UHGV virus genome: UHGV-0210252
Strand: one strand, 5' to 3'
DNA: 36,405 nt
Source of the DNA: a virus
The notes beneath the pieces were generated by a model that was not told the DNA's origin, did no database searches, and worked only from the letters and a program-made list of their open reading frames with translations. The position numbers were made by a program, and so were the translations under genes. Shown here piece after piece: positions 3,059 to 36,405 of the stretch. Each line of letters starts with the position of its first letter. Position 1 is the stretch's first letter.

Positions 3059-3322
3059 TTACTGCACTCCATATCCAGTGTCATTATCTTCTGTAGCGGA
3101 GAGCACCTTATCGTACTCTGCGTTCAGGGCCTCCATATCAGCCAGCGTCTTCTCGTCCACAGACACCTTGCTTAACACAAAGTTGTGACGAGCCAGCAGC
3201 TTCTCAATGGCGTTGTAGAGCTGAGGTGAACGTTTAGAGTCATCCCGCAAGTCTTGCAGCATGAGTCGAGCACGTTCAGTATCTAGCATTAAGAGGAACT
3301 TCTCTAAGTCCATCTGCGTCAT
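3059..3322 (-). CDS. Terminase small subunit (T7 gp18, DNA maturase A)
   Basis: 87 aa; size and position match T7 gp18. Confidence 0.8.
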   Translation of the reverse strand: MTQMDLEKFLLMLDTERARLMLQDLRDDSKRSPQLYNAIEKLLARHNFVLSKVSVDEKTLADMEALNAEYDKVLSATEDNDTGYGVQ

Positions 3323-3513
3323 GTTTTACCACCTCCTTTAATCGTTTTGTAGACTAGCACACCAATCTGGACAACGGTGTACGCGATAGCTGCAACGTAG
3401 AACCATTCGTTCAGTGTAAGTCCGAAGAAGAACCGACTGGCACCATCAGCCGCAGCGGTTCCGACGATAGGAGAGGCTTTAAGGACCTCATTCTTGAAGT
3501 CTAACTCAATCAT
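3319..3513 (-). CDS. Class II holin (T7 gp17.5)
   Basis: 64 aa; MIELDFKNEVLKASPIVGT...FFFGLTLNEWFYVAAIAYTVVQIG closely resembles T7 gp17.5. Confidence 0.85.
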   Translation of the reverse strand: MIELDFKNEVLKASPIVGTAAADGASRFFFGLTLNEWFYVAAIAYTVVQIGVLVYKTIKGGGKT

Positions 3514-5976: not shown

Positions 5977-5999
5977 AGTTTCCTATAGTGATAGTTTAG
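5977..5999 (-). promoter_or_regulatory. Phage RNAP promoter (phi17-like), TSS about 5982
   Basis: cctatagtgatagtt at 5982-5996; followed on minus strand by leader with AAGGAGG and the gene 17 ATG. Confidence 0.8.
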
Positions 6000-13750: not shown

Positions 13751-13800
13751 AAGGGCCTATAGTCCCTATAGTGATAGTTAAGGTAAATCTATAGGCCCTT
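13751..13800. repeat. Perfect 12-bp inverted repeat (aagggcctatag / ctataggccctt) enclosing the phi13-like promoter core
   Basis: Seen directly; arms at 13751-13762 and 13789-13800, promoter 15-mer at 13765-13779. Confidence 0.6.
13760..13782 (-). promoter_or_regulatory. Phage RNAP promoter (phi13-like), TSS about 13765
   Basis: cctatagtgatagtt at 13765-13779 between gene 12 stop and gene 13 start. Confidence 0.8.
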
Positions 13801-18309: not shown

Positions 18310-18332
18310 GTCTCCCTATAGTGATAGTTTAG
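18310..18332 (-). promoter_or_regulatory. Phage RNAP promoter (phi10-like), TSS about 18315
   Basis: cctatagtgatagtt at 18315-18329; minus-strand leader GGGAGAC...GGTTTCCC...AGGAGA...CATATG resembles the T7 gene 10 leader. Confidence 0.85.
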
Positions 18333-19310: not shown

Positions 19311-19333
19311 TTGTTCCTATAGTGATAGTTTAG
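19311..19333 (-). promoter_or_regulatory. Phage RNAP promoter (phi9-like), TSS about 19316
   Basis: cctatagtgatagtt at 19316-19330. Confidence 0.8.
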
Positions 19334-22519: not shown

Positions 22520-22542
22520 AAGTCCCTATAGTGATAGTTTAG
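22520..22542 (-). promoter_or_regulatory. Phage RNAP promoter (phi6.5-like), TSS about 22525
   Basis: cctatagtgatagtt at 22525-22539. Confidence 0.8.
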
Positions 22543-31442: not shown

Positions 31443-31465
31443 TCTGTCCTACAGTGATAGTTTAG
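31443..31465 (-). promoter_or_regulatory. Variant phage RNAP promoter (phi2.5 position), TSS about 31448
   Basis: cctacagtgatagtt at 31448-31462 (one change at -2). Confidence 0.6.
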
Positions 31466-32536: not shown

Positions 32537-32559
32537 GTAGTCCTATAGTGATAGCTTAG
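32537..32559 (-). promoter_or_regulatory. Phage RNAP promoter (phi1.5/1.6 position), TSS about 32542
   Basis: cctatagtgatagct at 32542-32556 (one change at about -13). Confidence 0.7.
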
Positions 32560-32595: not shown

Positions 32596-32632
32596 CAAAG
32601 CAAAGAAACCCAGCAGTCCGAAGACCACTGGG
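32596..32632 (-). terminator. TE-like intrinsic terminator after the DNA ligase gene
   Basis: Minus strand CCCAGUGGUC-UUCG-GACUGCUGGG (10-bp stem with two G.U, UUCG loop) followed by UUUCUUUGCUUUG; T7 has its early terminator after gene 1.3. Confidence 0.65.
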
Positions 32633-32643
32633 TTGACATTTAA

Positions 32644-33732
32644 TTAGCTCTTAATGGTCGGGTTATCTTCCGTCCCGCGCCAGCACTTGAAGCTAGGGTG
32701 ACGTAAGGAACCATCTGGTGTCATCTCCATGTAGGAGACCTCACACTGCCAGCCCTCGTATGGATTGACACCGCCAAGGATATATGTGTCGGTGTTACAT
32801 GCTTCCGTGAACTCATCCATCATAGCCTGAGAGATATTGTTAGCAGCAACTACCATACCGTTCTCAAGCAGTACGTCGAACCCAATCACCTTACCTTCGT
32901 TAGCGAGACCTTCAGTCCCCCAATTCAGTCCAACCACAGTACCATCAATGGTATCCTCAGGCTTCATTTTCCACATGCCTGACTTCTTACCACGCTTCCA
33001 CTTACCCAGCGGGTCCTTGACTACCAGACCCTCGTGTCCTTCCAGACGCTTCTCTTCGTACAGGGAGTTGAGCGACTCAAGGTCATAGACCGTGTGTGAC
33101 TCAGACAGAACCCAGTCAATTTCCGGGAAGTATTTCTTGAGGAGAGGGACGATAGCTTCGGCCTTCAGGCGGGTTACGCTATGGATAGGACCTTCGGCTT
33201 TCGGGTCGAGGATGACGTTAAGGTCGATGACCCCGTAGACGACTACCTGAATGTGTTCAGCAGCCAGCAGGAACGGTAGCTTTGACTTAGCGCCTGTTGA
33301 CTTGCGGGGCATCTCGTCAAACTTAACGTCATTGAACTTGAGGTTATCAGGCTTCAACCACTTCGTTCGTATGAGACCTGAAGACGTGTTGAAGTCTACA
33401 CCCTTGACCATGATCTCACCATCAATCATCAGGCCAGTGCCTTCGTAGCCAGCTTGCTTCAGGAACCAGAGCCAGTCAGACGCATTGGAGAGTCGAGGGT
33501 CTGCTACCTTATAGTCTCCTGCTGAGGTTGACAACCAGCTCAACGCTGGAAGCTCCTTGGACTCGCGGCTTAACCATTGAGTCTCACCAGTAGGAAAGAC
33601 CGGAAGATTCAACCGGACACCGTCATACTTCACCTCAGCTTCCAGTGACCCAGCAGCTTCCAGTGCTTTCTTAACGCCTGACTCAGAGTAATCTACAGCG
33701 CGATGCGGGTTAGTTTTGATAGTCGTAGTCAT
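32644..33732 (-). CDS. ATP-dependent DNA ligase (T7 gp1.3)
   Basis: Start set at MTTTIKTNPHRAV (T7 MMNIKTNPFKAV); EVKYDGVR adenylation motif, GHEGLVVKDP, WKMKPE, PDGSLRHPSF; track's upstream Met at 33810 rejected. Confidence 0.9.
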   Translation of the reverse strand: MTTTIKTNPHRAVDYSESGVKKALEAAGSLEAEVKYDGVRLNLPVFPTGETQWLSRESKELPALSWLSTSAGDYKVADPRLSNASDWLWFLKQAGYEGTGLMIDGEIMVKGVDFNTSSGLIRTKWLKPDNLKFNDVKFDEMPRKSTGAKSKLPFLLAAEHIQVVVYGVIDLNVILDPKAEGPIHSVTRLKAEAIVPLLKKYFPEIDWVLSESHTVYDLESLNSLYEEKRLEGHEGLVVKDPLGKWKRGKKSGMWKMKPEDTIDGTVVGLNWGTEGLANEGKVIGFDVLLENGMVVAANNISQAMMDEFTEACNTDTYILGGVNPYEGWQCEVSYMEMTPDGSLRHPSFKCWRGTEDNPTIKS

Positions 33733-33736
33733 TGTG

Positions 33737-33994
33737 TTATCTCCATGTGTCGAGTTGGTTAGCGAGACAGTTAAGGAAGCCTGTTGCAGTGTTGTACAGT
33801 ACGTCTTCATCGCGGTGTGCGAAGGTCTTAAGTGCGAAGATGTTACCTGCTAGGTCCTCGACTTGAAGTCTCATGCACTCTTTCTGAAGATGCGCCTCGT
33901 ACCAATGCTGCTGTATCACGCAGAAGTCTAACTGATAAAGCCTGTTACACGCTGCTTTGAAAGCGTTGAGGCTTCCACTATAAAGTCGGCCCAT
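33737..33994 (-). CDS. gp1.2 (host dGTPase inhibitor family)
   Basis: 85 aa; MGRLYSGSLNAFKAACNRLYQLD...HRDEDVLYN closely matches T7 gp1.2. Confidence 0.85.
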   Translation of the reverse strand: MGRLYSGSLNAFKAACNRLYQLDFCVIQQHWYEAHLQKECMRLQVEDLAGNIFALKTFAHRDEDVLYNTATGFLNCLANQLDTWR

Positions 33995-33998
33995 AGCG

Positions 33999-34178
33999 TT
34001 ATGCTCCTACGAAGTATTTCTCTTGGTTGACCATAGAGTCTTTACCTTCAGCATTACGGAAAGCGCCTTTGATGCCACCGCCACGTTTAGTCTTGTTCAG
34101 CTTGCGGCCCTTCGGAATGTAACCTTCAGTCTGCTGACGTTCACGGATGCGCTCGAAGTTGATAGTGTTCTGATACAT
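33999..34178 (-). CDS. gp1.1-like small basic protein (59 aa), hand-translated
   Basis: MYQNTINFERIRERQQTEGYIPKGRKLNKTKRGGGIKGAFRNAEGKDSMVNQEKYFVGA; KGRKLNKTKR matches T7 gp1.1; GGAGA RBS. Confidence 0.6.
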   Translation of the reverse strand: MYQNTINFERIRERQQTEGYIPKGRKLNKTKRGGGIKGAFRNAEGKDSMVNQEKYFVGA

Positions 34179-34214
34179 ACTGTTAAATCTCCAGTAGTTT
34201 ACGTTAGTAGTAAG

Positions 34215-34260
34215 GGTTAATCATGAAGGCCACGACTTTGAGTCATGACCTTGAGTCTAA
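34215..34260 (-). promoter_or_regulatory. RNase III-type processing hairpin (R1.1-like)
   Basis: Third copy of ATGAAGGCCAC...ATGACCTTGAGTCTA, immediately downstream of the phi1.1-like TSS. Confidence 0.55.
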
Positions 34261-34279
34261 TCCTATAGTGATAGTTTAG
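34257..34279 (-). promoter_or_regulatory. Phage RNAP promoter (phi1.1-like), TSS about 34262
   Basis: cctatagtgatagtt at 34262-34276. Confidence 0.8.
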
Positions 34280-34742
34280 GGTATAATCGTTGGCTGTTGC
34301 GTAAGGCTTGTACTATACGTTCCTGCTCTGCCTCCTCGCCGTAGACCTTAACCCGCTCGTAGTCGTACTGGATGCGACCGTCGATGTCGCTCAGTCGGTA
34401 CTCAAAGTCTTTCTGAGACCCGTCTACGTGGTGCTGGTGGATGGTAAGGGTGCGTTCAGTCTTCGATGTGGTGAAATGCTTAACGTTCTTCCCACAGCTA
34501 CCCGGCCCGGTCTTGAACTCAGTCGGTTGGTACAGACCGTTGAACAGTGCCTTGAACTTGATGCCTACCATACGCTTGACATGTACAGCCAGTGGTGGCG
34601 TTAGGCGCTTACGCTCTGATTCAGCAAGTTTAACCTTCAGTCTCTCGTTGTCTTTATCCAGGACCATTACTACTCGCTCAAAGTATGCCACCTTCATGTT
34701 CAACTCTTTGATTTGTGCTTTAAGTTTTGACTTACCAAACAT
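34263..34742 (-). CDS. Hypothetical protein (159 aa) between gene 1 and gene 1.1
   Basis: ATG with GAGG RBS; N-terminal coiled-coil-like region; no motif recognised. Confidence 0.55.
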   Translation of the reverse strand: MFGKSKLKAQIKELNMKVAYFERVVMVLDKDNERLKVKLAESERKRLTPPLAVHVKRMVGIKFKALFNGLYQPTEFKTGPGSCGKNVKHFTTSKTERTLTIHQHHVDGSQKDFEYRLSDIDGRIQYDYERVKVYGEEAEQERIVQALRNSQRLYPKLSL

Positions 34743-34820
34743 AGGGTTAACCTCTTCTGCGTTGGATTAAAGTGAATACTGCGAGTGCTCCTAGCCACAA
34801 GGCCAGTAACTGTAGGTCTG

Positions 34821-35036
34821 TCATTTGGTCTGCTCCAGCTTGGACACTGCGTCCTTCAGGTACTTCTCGTGGCTGGACTCGACCAGATATACAAGAGTCT
34901 TGAACGGAATGTTGAGCTGCTTGGACATCTTAGTTGGGATGACAGTGGTCTTCACCAGAACCTTACCGTTGTGTTCCGTTACGGTCACGATTTGAGTCCC
35001 ACCATTAACGCCCGTCTGCTTGTGTGCGAATTTCAT
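34821..35036 (-). CDS. Hypothetical protein (71 aa) immediately after gene 1
   Basis: ATG 35036 with GGGGAGAG RBS, 13 nt after the RNAP stop; no motif recognised. Confidence 0.5.
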   Translation of the reverse strand: MKFAHKQTGVNGGTQIVTVTEHNGKVLVKTTVIPTKMSKQLNIPFKTLVYLVESSHEKYLKDAVSKLEQTK

Positions 35037-35048
35037 AACTCTCCCCTG

Positions 35049-36405
35049 TTAAGCGAATGCAAAGTCTGAAGACAAGATGTCCTCGATATTCAGTTTACCT
35101 TTCTTCGGAAGCTCAGGCAACTTGTCGCGCTGGCTCTCATGAAGTTGGTATTCAAACTGCTCGTAGAAGTCAAGCAGCACATCGTTGTCGCGGTAGGTCT
35201 CGACCATTGTCTCACGGACACCCCGGAACAGATACTCAGCGTCAGCCGGGATGGTCCCGAAGCTATCGTGAATCACTGCGAACGACATCACGCCATACTT
35301 ACGGTGAGTGTGGACTACAGTCTTGCGGAGGTGGCTACCATCTTGTGAATGGACGAAGTTCGGGCTAATGCCTGACTCCTGCTTGTGCTTGTCCAGCTCT
35401 TTCTTAGTACCTTTGTTTACTGTAGGCTGAAGGTTAAATGACCCTAAAAACATCAGGTTCAGACGAGTGGTATCCTTCTTTCGGTATTCCTGCCAGACAG
35501 GGAAACCATCAGGTGTGACCCAGTGTACCGGAAGGCATGGCTTCAGGATTTCTCCAGTCTTCTTGTCCTTCACTTCAGCAGCCAGCAGCTTGGCAGCTCC
35601 TTGAAGCCACTTCATCGCGTCAACAGCAGCAACTACGGTCACACTCACAGCTTCCCAAATCATCTTAGCCATGAAGCGAGACGCTTGGCTTGGTTCGGTG
35701 AACATAGCTCCAGACCCTGAGTCAATCGCTGGCATCACGATGTCCTCGTACACTTGGTCTGCGAAGCCATACTCTTTCGACCCGTAAGCCAGAGTCATGA
35801 CCGAACGCTTAGTGACCTTACGTGACATACCGTAGGTCAGCCACTGACGGGCCAGCTCTCGTGTCCCCAGCTTGAGACGCTCGGTAATCTCACCAGTTTT
35901 CTTGTCCTCGTGAGTTATCATCTCGTTGTCCGTACCGTTAACCAGCAGGACTTTAAGCTCCTCCTCAATGCGGTCAGACACGATACGGTAGATGTCTTGG
36001 ACCTTACCGGATGGCGTCAGGTTTACTGCATGTCCACCGATGTGGTCACGAAGCATAGCGCTGAAGTGCTGAATCCCAGAGCAGGACCCATCGAAAGCTA
36101 TCGGCAGCGAGCAGGAGTAAGACAATCCGTGGTGCATTACGCCAGCATACTCGAAGCAGAACGCAAGGAAGCAGAACGGAGAGTCTAACTTGCCCCACCA
36201 CTCAATGCTGTCCATCGGTGCCTTAGCAGCAGCCATGATGTTGTCGTGGTTGTCTTCCACCCACTTTATGCGCTCCTCGAAGGTAACTTTATCGACACCC
36301 GCGCAGTTTGCACCGTGGACCTTCAGCCATTTAAAACCATCGGCACCAATAGGCTTACCGACTGCTAGAGTTAGGAGTCCCTTCTGCATGTCGTTACCTT
36401 GAGGG
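35049..36405 (-). CDS. Phage single-subunit RNA polymerase (T7 gp1), C-terminal ~450 aa; 5' end lies outside the window
   Basis: Strong similarity to T7 RNAP C-terminal half (SCSGIQHFSAMLRD, RSVMTLAYGS, HDSFGT, terminal FAFA); reading frame open to the window edge. Confidence 0.95.
   Translation of the reverse strand, partial: PQGNDMQKGLLTLAVGKPIGADGFKWLKVHGANCAGVDKVTFEERIKWVEDNHDNIMAAAKAPMDSIEWWGKLDSPFCFLAFCFEYAGVMHHGLSYSCSLPIAFDGSCSGIQHFSAMLRDHIGGHAVNLTPSGKVQDIYRIVSDRIEEELKVLLVNGTDNEMITHEDKKTGEITERLKLGTRELARQWLTYGMSRKVTKRSVMTLAYGSKEYGFADQVYEDIVMPAIDSGSGAMFTEPSQASRFMAKMIWEAVSVTVVAAVDAMKWLQGAAKLLAAEVKDKKTGEILKPCLPVHWVTPDGFPVWQEYRKKDTTRLNLMFLGSFNLQPTVNKGTKKELDKHKQESGISPNFVHSQDGSHLRKTVVHTHRKYGVMSFAVIHDSFGTIPADAEYLFRGVRETMVETYRDNDVLLDFYEQFEYQLHESQRDKLPELPKKGKLNIEDILSSDFAFA

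What the first reader, a model, noticed from the sequence alone, without database searches (positions are those of the whole stretch)
34263..35036. Two-gene accessory block between gene 1 (RNAP) and gene 1.1
T7 has only promoters and an RNase III site between genes 1 and 1.1. Here two intact co-oriented ORFs with good RBSs (71 aa at 34821-35036; 159 aa at 34263-34742) occupy this interval. I recognise no motif in either. The block would be transcribed early by host RNAP readthrough from gene 1, the timing typical of host-takeover or anti-defence functions, which makes it a candidate for an undescribed function.
Basis: inference. Interest (0 to 1): 0.55.

Follow-up and report, generated by a model that had tools for sequence, protein, structure and literature searches.

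The report
Known phage gene block, function unknown
The two small genes after the RNA polymerase gene of this T7-like phage are real, but both belong to known families of unknown function (the larger is the counterpart of phage T3 gene 1.05), and a conserved, unannotated 25-codon membrane-peptide gene lies between them.

Summary
The window is a Kayfunavirus (K1F/EcoDS1-like T7 relative) read on the minus strand. Both ORFs sit at the stated coordinates, have ribosome-binding sites and are under purifying selection.

Neither is a new gene:
- The 159-aa ORF is a clear member of Pfam PF25755, "phage T3 gene 1.05". This gene sits at the same place, between gene 1 and gene 1.1, across Studiervirinae; T7 lacks it.
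- The 71-aa ORF is PHROG 8082, found after gene 1 in about 220 Kayfunavirus-type records.

No function is reported for either. Sequence, profile and fold searches found no informative relative.

New points:
- The 78-nt "spacer" between the ORFs holds a conserved 25-codon ORF. It encodes one membrane helix plus RRRG and is not annotated in any record inspected.
- The 159-aa gene is a dispensable cassette, cleanly missing from K1F and many relatives.
- Its stop codon lies inside the phi1.1 promoter.
- Many homologues in other genera carry an N-terminal membrane helix.

Best reading (inference): early, non-housekeeping host-interaction proteins, some of them membrane-directed. Interest is low to moderate.

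The parts
35049..36405 (-). 3' part of gene 1 (T7-type RNA polymerase). It runs off the window; the stop codon is at 35049-35051.
   Evidence: translation. The last 200 residues are 89.9-100% identical to gene 1 of the Kayfunavirus loci and 71% to phiSG-JL2. Annotated as RNA polymerase in SP7 and EcoDS1.
34821..35036 (-). ORF-A, 71 aa, pI 9.8. Genus-restricted small protein (PHROG 8082). The model shows three beta strands (residues 2-33) followed by three short helices.
   Evidence: 153 homologues, all on T7-like contigs of about 40 kb; 220 phage records. AF2 pLDDT 75; dN/dS 0.16 overall, 0.07 for residues 1-46; pI.
34747..34824 (-). Unannotated 25-codon ORF encoding MTDLQLLALWLGALAVFTLIQRRRG: one hydrophobic helix plus a basic C-terminus. 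Its ATG overlaps the ORF-A stop (ATGA). Its last codons contain the Shine-Dalgarno sequence of ORF-B.
   Evidence: Conserved at 25 codons in the window, the 23 Kayfunavirus loci first collected and 3 more divergent ones. Stop codon is TAA, TGA or TAG, always at the same position. Variable sites by codon position are 10/7/16. dN/dS is 0.20. A GGAG/GAGG motif lies 8-12 nt upstream in every ORF-A allele type. The 88-nt stretch is present in 222 phage records. No PHROG match.
34263..34742 (-). ORF-B, 159 aa, pI 9.7. Member of the T3 gene 1.05 family (Pfam PF25755).
   Evidence: Labelled gp1.05 in EcoDS1. dN/dS 0.22.
34602..34739 (-). ORF-B residues 2-47: long helix with a heptad pattern and one core Asn, suggesting a parallel dimeric coiled coil (inferred). 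This is the most variable part of the protein.
   Evidence: AF2 helix 2-47. Heptad register LILVFVLNLLSR. dN/dS 0.40, with several distinct allele types.
34344..34586 (-). ORF-B residues 53-133: six-stranded beta domain, which is the PF25755 domain. Signature: F..EFKLGxGxCGKxV...Q.[H/C]xDG..K.F.Y...D..GR[IV]E.
   Evidence: Pfam match covers residues 58-128. AF2 strands. Invariant G79, C83, Q103, F113, G122, R123 across 50 cluster representatives with 21% mean column identity. dN/dS 0.14.
34260..34282 (-). Phage-RNAP promoter phi1.1 (ACCCTAAACTATCACTATAGGAT). The predicted +1 G at 34263 is the last base of the ORF-B stop codon TAG.
   Evidence: Nine sites on the minus strand share CTAA(A/G)CTATCACT(A/G)TAGG. 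The same gene-end/promoter overlap is annotated in phiSG-JL2 and EcoDS1.
34219..34262 (-). Hairpin just downstream of the promoter, with a 12-bp core stem at 34226-34252. It occupies the position of the RNase III site R1.1.
   Evidence: -16.9 kcal/mol, z = -3.1 against shuffles. A stem-loop annotated as the R1.1 RNase III site sits at the same place in phiSG-JL2. No Rfam family matches.
33999..34178 (-). Gene 1.1 (59 aa).
   Evidence: Pfam PF08200 Phage_1_1, E 6e-11; PHROG 4383.
33737..33994 (-). Gene 1.2 (dGTPase inhibitor family).
   Evidence: Pfam PF10922, E 1.4e-30; PHROG 2949.
32607..32634 (-). Terminator-like hairpin after the ligase gene. It marks the likely end of the early transcription unit that contains the block.
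   Evidence: 12-bp stem followed by a T-rich tail. A terminator named TE is annotated at the same place in EcoDS1.

Best explanation
SHOWN:
- The interval between gene 1 and the phi1.1 promoter of this Kayfunavirus encodes three small proteins, with no promoter or terminator-like site separating them from gene 1.
- ORF-A is a 71-aa basic protein specific to the genus.
- The second is a 25-aa peptide with one predicted membrane helix; its ATG overlaps the ORF-A stop.
- ORF-B is a 159-aa member of the T3 gene 1.05 family.
- ORF-A and the 25-codon ORF are constant in the genus.
- ORF-B is an optional cassette. It is precisely absent from K1F-type genomes, at a junction flanked by the 6-nt repeat ACCCTA that is shared with the promoter.

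INFERRED:
- None of the three is a replication, transcription or structural housekeeping protein.
- They are early host-interaction factors that act by binding rather than by a known enzymatic activity.
- ORF-B is probably a parallel coiled-coil dimer that presents two copies of an 80-residue beta domain.
- The domain's invariant Cys83, Gln103, Arg123, near-invariant Asp107, Lys111 and Tyr115, and a His/Cys-alternating position 105 probably form a metal- or ligand-dependent binding site.
- About 40% of homologue clusters in other genera (phiSG-JL2, Berlinvirus and Erwinia phages among them) fuse this domain to an N-terminal membrane helix with the basic residues after it. The target is therefore most likely at the cytoplasmic face of the inner membrane.
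- The 25-aa peptide is likewise membrane-inserted.
- The likely biological role is modulation of a host envelope-associated process, or exclusion or defence evasion. It would be useful on some hosts and dispensable on others.
For: Identity and conservation:
-. The domain is found in 608 phage records when a membrane-helix-bearing homologue is used as query.

Early transcription unit:
- No promoter or terminator lies between gene 1 and the block.
- The promoter sits at the ORF-B stop, and a terminator-like hairpin follows the ligase gene.

Selection:
- dN/dS is 0.16, 0.20 and 0.22 for the three ORFs.

Dispensability of ORF-B:
- It is absent in 9 of 23 related loci, always at the same junction.
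- It is truncated in SH3 and split in Peacock.

Architecture:
- AF2 model with pLDDT 82: helix, six-strand domain, helix.
- Heptad pattern with a core Asn.
- Invariant polar residues.
- 21 of 51 representative clusters have an N-terminal hydrophobic helix (a 22nd flagged window is internal). Examples are translated.

No housekeeping relative:
- No hit in Pfam, NCBIfam or PADLOC beyond PF25755, in PDB sequence or profile searches, or in fold searches.
Against: - No experiment or informative homologue supports any specific activity or target.
- The window's own ORF-B has no membrane helix (maximum Kyte-Doolittle 19-residue window 0.67). The membrane argument is therefore borrowed from homologues.
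- Coiled-coil-only forms exist without any neighbouring membrane-peptide gene, as in Pectobacterium phage Cornix.
- Strongly conserved polar residues could equally indicate an enzyme.
- Both ORF-A and ORF-B are basic (pI about 9.7-9.8), which also fits nucleic-acid binding.
- The fold searches for ORF-B were dominated by its long helix, so a distant fold match for the beta domain may have been missed.
Confidence: 0.5

Rival explanations
1. The block is a nucleic-acid or polymerase-directed control module. ORF-A, and possibly ORF-B, would bind DNA, RNA or an RNA polymerase and tune transcription or replication initiation at the adjacent phi1.1 promoter/origin region, or shut off the host polymerase.
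For: - ORF-A directly follows gene 1 in every genome of the genus.
- ORF-A is basic (pI 9.8).
- Divergent alleles carry an A-x-x-x-G-[IL]-[ST] helix-turn-helix-like motif.
- Gene 1.05 abuts the promoter in all genera examined, and phiSG-JL2 annotates a replication origin next to it.
Against: - No helix-turn-helix or other DNA-binding Pfam family matches any of 13 ORF-A alleles, even at E <= 10.
- The net charge of the ORF-B beta domain is not conserved (mean +0.7, range -5 to +6).
- Many ORF-B homologues are membrane-anchored.
- ORF-B is dispensable in nature.
Confidence: 0.2
2. ORF-B is a small enzyme, or a sponge for a small signalling molecule, rather than a protein-binding adaptor. Its invariant Cys, Gln, Asp, Lys, Tyr and Arg would form an active site or ligand pocket, and it would counter a nucleotide-signalling defence system.
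For: - Six invariant and nine near-invariant residues persist in an 80-residue domain at 21% mean column identity.
- The gene has a patchy, accessory distribution and sits in the early unit.
- It is a small, oligomer-prone protein.
Against: - No similarity to any solved structure or family.
- A membrane anchor in about 40% of clusters is not expected for a soluble sponge.
- The GxxxxGK-like motif is not a true P-loop: the residue after Lys varies, Lys is Leu in several members, and the fold is all-beta.
Confidence: 0.15
3. The 78-nt stretch between ORF-A and ORF-B is conserved as a nucleic-acid element (for example a ribosome-binding or processing signal for the downstream gene, or a promoter remnant), and the 25-codon ORF is not translated into a functional peptide.
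For: - Nucleotide identity is very high: 170 of 222 records are at least 95% identical.
- Its 3' end contains the Shine-Dalgarno sequence of ORF-B, or of gene 1.1 in vB_Ecl_MII_004.
Against: - Variation is concentrated at third codon positions (10/7/16), and dN/dS is 0.20.
- The stop codon changes identity but not position.
- The Kosakonia phage version shares only about half of its residues yet keeps 25 codons, the hydrophobic helix and QRRRG.
- No stable RNA fold is predicted (z = +0.53), and there is no Rfam match.
- The stretch is retained where ORF-B is absent.
Confidence: 0.1
4. The ORFs are non-functional or spurious open frames.
For: - No function is known.
- ORF-B is missing or broken in some relatives.
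Against: - All three ORFs are under purifying selection.
- Hundreds of intact homologues exist.
- The ORF-B domain is conserved across several Studiervirinae genera.
Confidence: 0.03

Closest known systems
Phage T3 gene 1.05 family (Pfam PF25755 Phage_T3_1_05; PHROGs 8103, 6379, 6440, 9238)
   Same: - ORF-B matches the Pfam model at 88 bits (cut-off 27) over residues 58-128.
- It lies between gene 1 and gene 1.1.
- Its 3' end overlaps the phi1.1 promoter, as in phiSG-JL2 and EcoDS1.
- Function is unknown in every member.
   Different: - The window's protein has a coiled-coil N-terminus without the membrane helix seen in phiSG-JL2 gp1.05 and the Berlinvirus and Erwinia phage homologues.
- It has no phi1.05 promoter of its own, unlike AP5 and phiSG-JL2.
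PHROG 8082 (the small protein after gene 1 in K1F, EcoDS1, SP7 and relatives)
   Same: ORF-A matches full length at E 1.7e-40. It is 93% identical to the unnamed K1F protein AAZ72969 and occupies the same position.
   Different: Nothing of note. It is the 71-aa allele type; a 66-aa type and alleles at 44-56% identity also exist. EcoDS1 labels it 'gp1.1', which is a naming error.
Small single-helix membrane peptides of bacteria and phages (for example type I toxins and small regulatory membrane proteins); resemblance recalled from general knowledge, not tested
   Same: 25 residues, with one hydrophobic helix followed by a short basic tail.
   Different: No sequence family match. No antisense RNA or toxicity evidence was sought. 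It is translationally coupled to an upstream phage gene.
T7 early accessory proteins (gp0.3 Ocr, gp0.4, gp0.6, gp0.7, gp1.2), from established knowledge of T7
   Same: Small proteins encoded in the early, host-RNAP-transcribed region, and variable between relatives. Gene 1.2 is present just downstream.
   Different: No sequence or fold similarity to any of them was found, and no target is known.

Membership tests
Pfam PF25755 (T3 gene 1.05 protein), for ORF-B | Match to the family HMM above the gathering score | tested here: met
   88 bits against a cut-off of 27, E 4e-25, profile positions 2-73 of 73. All 50 diverse homologues also match.
Pfam PF25755 (T3 gene 1.05 protein), for ORF-B | Position between gene 1 (RNAP) and gene 1.1, ending at the phi1.1 promoter | tested here: met
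   The layout is the same in EcoDS1, phiSG-JL2, Berlinvirus K12P1.1, the Erwinia phage and Cornix.
Pfam PF25755 (T3 gene 1.05 protein), for ORF-B | Conserved core motif GxGxCG(K) ... Q..DG..K.F.Y ... GR | tested here: met
   G79, G81, C83, G84, K85, Q103, D107, G108, K111, F113, Y115, G122 and R123 are all present.
Membrane-anchored gp1.05 subtype (phiSG-JL2 type) | N-terminal hydrophobic helix before the coiled coil | tested here: not met
   Maximum 19-residue Kyte-Doolittle mean is 0.67, against 1.9-3.7 in anchored homologues.
PHROG 8082, for ORF-A | Full-length match to the family profile | tested here: met
   E 1.7e-40, residues 1-66 of a 66-position profile.
Helix-turn-helix DNA-binding proteins, considered for ORF-A | Match to a helix-turn-helix profile or fold | tested here: not met
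   No Pfam helix-turn-helix hit for 13 alleles at E <= 10. There is only a PADLOC HTH_VI hit at E 0.015 and a motif seen by eye.
AP2 / integrase-N-type three-stranded-sheet DNA-binding fold, or Xp10 P7-like RNAP binder, considered for ORF-A | Significant structural superposition | tested here: inconclusive
P-loop NTPases, considered for ORF-B because of GPGSCGKN | Walker A GxxxxGK[ST] in an alpha/beta fold | tested here: not met
   The residue after Lys is N, T, V, E or D. Lys is replaced by Leu or His in several members. The domain is an all-beta meander of 80 residues.
Known anti-phage defence proteins (PADLOC), considered for both ORFs | Match to a defence-protein profile | tested here: not met
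   No hit for ORF-B and one weak hit for ORF-A. No library of anti-defence proteins was available.
Type I toxin-like or small regulatory membrane peptides, considered for the 25-codon ORF | Membrane insertion, plus toxicity or a specific partner | not testable with these tools
   Only the composition is known: one hydrophobic helix plus RRRG, GRAVY 0.73.

The most novel reading that the evidence does not exclude
The interval would encode a three-part early module aimed at the inner membrane. A 25-aa membrane peptide, so far unannotated although its coding stretch is present in more than 200 sequenced phages, would be the detached anchor, or a partner, of the gene 1.05 protein. Together with the genus-core 71-aa protein they would represent a new kind of T7-family host-takeover or exclusion factor, built on a beta domain with no detectable relative among solved structures.
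Probability: 0.15. Interest if true: 0.55.

Novelty: new member of a known kind. Interest (0 to 1): 0.3.

Why it matters
On its own, the finding adds another copy of two already catalogued hypothetical phage genes.

Its value is in three points:
- Gene 1.05 is among the most widespread Studiervirinae accessory genes with no assigned function. It is seen in about 600 deposited genomes, many of them phages isolated on Klebsiella, Salmonella and E. coli. It also has natural presence/absence pairs (for example K1F against SP7 or EcoDS1) that make its role directly testable.
- Its conserved Cys-containing domain and alternative membrane-anchored forms narrow where to look for a target.
- A conserved 25-codon membrane-peptide gene is missed by the gene calls in every record inspected, which shows how small phage genes escape annotation.

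Tried and rejected
- **Sequence and profile searches of solved structures** for both proteins and their alignments found nothing below E 0.01.
- **Foldseek against the PDB** gave no hit with E <= 0.001.
- **Caps** on structure prediction and fold search stopped me from re-running the isolated domain.
- **NCBIfam and PADLOC** gave no meaningful hits.
- **A full HMMER scan of 1.84 billion cluster representatives** found only 58 clusters, nearly all small phage proteins.
- **A profile search for distant ORF-A relatives** stayed within the same family.
- **Literature.** Searches for gp1.05, 'gene 1.05', accession numbers and the Pfam name returned only genome-announcement tables. The supplements of the accessory-gene screen by Silas et al. 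do not contain these sequences.
- **P-loop reading of GPGSCGK** was rejected.
- **Programmed frameshift fusing the 25-codon ORF to ORF-B.** The ORF-B start is in the +1 frame in 12 of 14 loci but in the +2 frame in L017 and L022, so the frame relation is not conserved. I treat this as unsupported.
- **RNA structure or an Rfam family in the spacer** was not found.
- **tblastn with the 25-aa peptide** found nothing, probably because of low-complexity masking. A nucleotide search was used instead.
- **Conserved basic charge of the beta domain**, as a sign of nucleic-acid binding, is not present.

Full report
**What the window is.** The region reads on the minus strand as the early region of a T7-family phage:
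- the 3' part of gene 1 (RNA polymerase);
- the two ORFs of the finding;
- gene 1.1 (Pfam PF08200);
- gene 1.2 (PF10922);
- DNA ligase.

A megablast of 34100-35200 finds 223 phage records. Those I opened at this locus are classified as Kayfunavirus (one record carries no lineage). The best are vB_EcoP_SP7 (93.8% identity) and Klebsiella phage SEA1f (93.7%); EcoDS1 is at 90.9%.

**The observation.** They are real genes:
- ORF-B (159 aa) matches Pfam PF25755 'Enterobacteria phage T3 gene 1.05 protein' at 88 bits against a cut-off of 27, and PHROG 8103 at E 2e-58.
- ORF-A (71 aa) matches PHROG 8082 at E 1.7e-40.
- Database searches return 237 and 153 homologue clusters respectively, and every long contig among the listed hits is about 40 kb.
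- Mean pairwise dN/dS across related loci is 0.16 for ORF-A. It is 0.07 in the N-terminal sheet region.
- For ORF-B it is 0.22: 0.40 in the N-terminal helix and 0.14 in the beta domain.

**It is not an unrecognised block.**
- EcoDS1 already labels the ORF-B homologue gp1.05.
- AP5/T3, phiSG-JL2, Kvp1 and 285P have a gene 1.05 at the same position.
- With a membrane-helix-bearing homologue as query, the domain is found in 608 phage records, 345 of them Klebsiella phages.
- T7 is therefore the exception rather than the rule.
- ORF-A is present in about 220 records, including K1F itself. A profile search did not take it beyond this family.
- Every paper retrieved that mentions gene 1.05 lists it only as hypothetical.

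**Anatomy and expression.**
- The phage promoter consensus in this genome is CTAA(A/G)CTATCACT(A/G)TAGG, with nine sites on the minus strand.
- None lies between gene 1 and ORF-B, and no terminator-like site does either.
- The first promoter in this stretch (34260-34282) overlaps the end of ORF-B. The stop codon TAG is part of CACTATAGG.
- It is followed by a 12-bp hairpin at the place of the R1.1 RNase III site (z -3.1; compare).
- A terminator-like hairpin follows the ligase gene, where EcoDS1 annotates TE.
- In SP7 and EcoDS1 a phage promoter also lies about 80 nt upstream of gene 1. Transcription by the phage enzyme is thus likely as well. That region is outside the window.

**A third gene.** The 78 nt between ORF-A and ORF-B are not a spacer. 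An ATG overlapping the ORF-A stop (ATGA) opens a 25-codon frame at 34747-34824. It encodes MTDLQLLALWLGALAVFTLIQRRRG. Evidence that it is coding:
- The frame is 25 codons long in the window and in all 23 Kayfunavirus loci first collected.
- There are 22 distinct nucleotide sequences but only 12 peptides.
- Variable sites by codon position are 10/7/16, and dN/dS is 0.20.
- The stop codon is TAA, TGA or TAG, always at the same position.
- Three further genomes, whose ORF-A is only 44-56% identical, keep the frame. Kosakonia phage Kc166A has MSDSLWLVIWLALLVVYIIRQRRRG.
- A GGAG/GAGG motif lies 8-12 nt upstream in every ORF-A allele type, although the overlapping protein sequences differ.
- The stretch occurs in 222 records and is kept where ORF-B is missing.
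- No stable RNA fold and no Rfam family explains it.

It is not annotated in SP7, EcoDS1, K1F, Pisces, Peacock, ST63, Kc166A or vB_Ecl_MII_004. Two other records instead call a 38-aa ORF in a frame that the substitution pattern does not support. I conclude it is very probably a translated single-helix membrane peptide.

**ORF-B is an optional cassette.**
- Nine of 23 related loci, including K1F, lack it.
- In those loci the sequence runs ...GAAGAGGTTAACC(C)TAAACTATCACTATAGG.
- The gene is therefore missing exactly between two copies of ACCCTA. One copy precedes its ATG (34742-34747). The other lies in the promoter (34277-34282).
- Citrobacter phage SH3 has a truncated copy, and Peacock has a split one.
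- ORF-A and the peptide gene are always present.
- EcoDS1-type genomes carry one more 76-aa ORF between gene 1 and ORF-A.
- The stretch from gene 1 to gene 1.3 is thus a small accessory region with fixed and variable slots.

**What the proteins look like.**
- ORF-B: the AF2 model (pLDDT 82) has a helix at residues 2-47, a six-stranded beta domain at 53-133, and a helix at 135-152.
- The N-terminal helix has a clean heptad pattern with one core Asn. By general knowledge of leucine zippers this suggests a parallel dimer.
- Across 50 cluster representatives (mean column identity 21%) G79, C83, Q103, F113, G122 and R123 are invariant.
- F63, F76, G81, G84, V87, D107, G108, K111 and Y115 are nearly invariant.
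- Position 105 alternates between His and Cys, with three Thr. That pattern is typical of a metal ligand, and it would lie near Cys83 in a beta meander (inference).
- The family has three architectures: domain alone, coiled coil plus domain, and membrane helix plus coiled coil plus domain.
- The last is found in 21 of 51 clusters and in phiSG-JL2 gp1.05, a Berlinvirus and an Erwinia phage.
- In those proteins the basic residues follow the helix, which places the domain in the cytoplasm by the positive-inside rule.
- ORF-A: the model (pLDDT 75) shows three strands and then three short helices.

**Attempts to assign function.** No solved structure, Pfam, NCBIfam or PADLOC family is informative.
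- Foldseek found nothing with E <= 0.001.
- A P-loop reading of GPGSCGK fails.
- The domain's net charge is not conserved.
- A frameshift fusion of the peptide gene to ORF-B is not supported, because the frame offset differs in two loci.

**Verdict.** But it describes members of known families.

My best explanation, at about 0.5 confidence, is a set of early host-interaction proteins, with gene 1.05 acting as a dimeric binder near the inner membrane. This rests on architecture and distribution, not on any functional evidence.

The main rivals are:
- a nucleic-acid or polymerase-directed regulator, chiefly for ORF-A (0.2);
- an enzyme or ligand sponge, for ORF-B (0.15).

The most useful new item is the unannotated 25-codon membrane-peptide gene.

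Noticed in passing
window 34747-34824 (-): A conserved, unannotated 25-codon ORF encodes a single-helix peptide ending in QRRRG. It overlaps the ORF-A stop (ATGA) and is present wherever ORF-A is present.
   Followed up: yes
window 34260-34282 (-), and eight other minus-strand sites with their CACT(A/G)TAGG core at 626-634, 5982-5990, 13765-13773, 18315-18323, 19316-19324, 22525-22533, 31448-31456 and 32542-32550: The phage promoter consensus is CTAA(A/G)CTATCACT(A/G)TAGG. The phi1.1 copy overlaps the last codons and the stop of ORF-B, so the C-terminal tail ...YPKLSL is encoded by promoter sequence. Homologues with other tails differ just upstream of the promoter core.
   Followed up: partly
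window 34742-34747 and 34277-34282 (-); L003 (K1F) 2070-2100: A 6-nt repeat, ACCCTA, flanks ORF-B. Genomes lacking ORF-B have exactly one copy, which fits loss or gain by recombination at promoter-like sequence. T7's paired phi1.1A and phi1.1B promoters might be the remnant of the same event (speculation).
   Followed up: partly
L001 (EcoDS1) 3168-3398; also L010, L011 and L028: Some relatives carry an additional 76-aa ORF between gene 1 and ORF-A (MSMKLVAHNKAFNDGSGRCHVELTYKDL...). It is another variable slot and is absent from the window.
   Followed up: no
loci L001, L005, L007, L010-L021, L023, L024, between gene 1.1 and the ligase gene: In 17 of the 23 Kayfunavirus loci compared, tblastn with the window's gene 1.2 product finds nothing, although about 230-320 nt separate gene 1.1 from the ligase gene. 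The gene 1.2 slot seems to hold unrelated alleles.
   Followed up: no
L034 (Enterobacter phage vB_Ecl_MII_004) 1098-1200: Here gene 1.1 (MYQNTINF...) starts directly after the 25-codon ORF, with no phi1.1 promoter or hairpin in between.
   Followed up: no
phage records OR786095 (Staphylococcus phage MBBL139), MT350292 (Enterococcus phage EFA-1) and PQ520054 (Enterococcus phage IME_EF3): Records named after Gram-positive hosts carry this Kayfunavirus locus at 88-99% identity. The host labels look wrong, or the samples were mixed.
   Followed up: no
records MT808983 (TM1), MK610268 (yong1), MW748991 (IME278); EU734172 (EcoDS1): ORF-B homologues are annotated 'microtubule-binding protein', most likely an artefact of the coiled coil. 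EcoDS1 labels the ORF-A homologue 'gp1.1', duplicating the name of the true gene 1.1.
   Followed up: partly
window 33732-33810 (-): The mechanical ORF for the ligase starts at an upstream ATG (33810) inside gene 1.2. By comparison with relatives, the likely true start is the ATG at 33732 (MTTTIKTNPH...).
   Followed up: no
protein P0259 (1173 aa): A long Cys-rich protein matched the G-x-G-x-C-G-K region of ORF-B in 12 separate stretches (E 6e-8). It is probably a repeat or composition artefact and was not examined.
   Followed up: no
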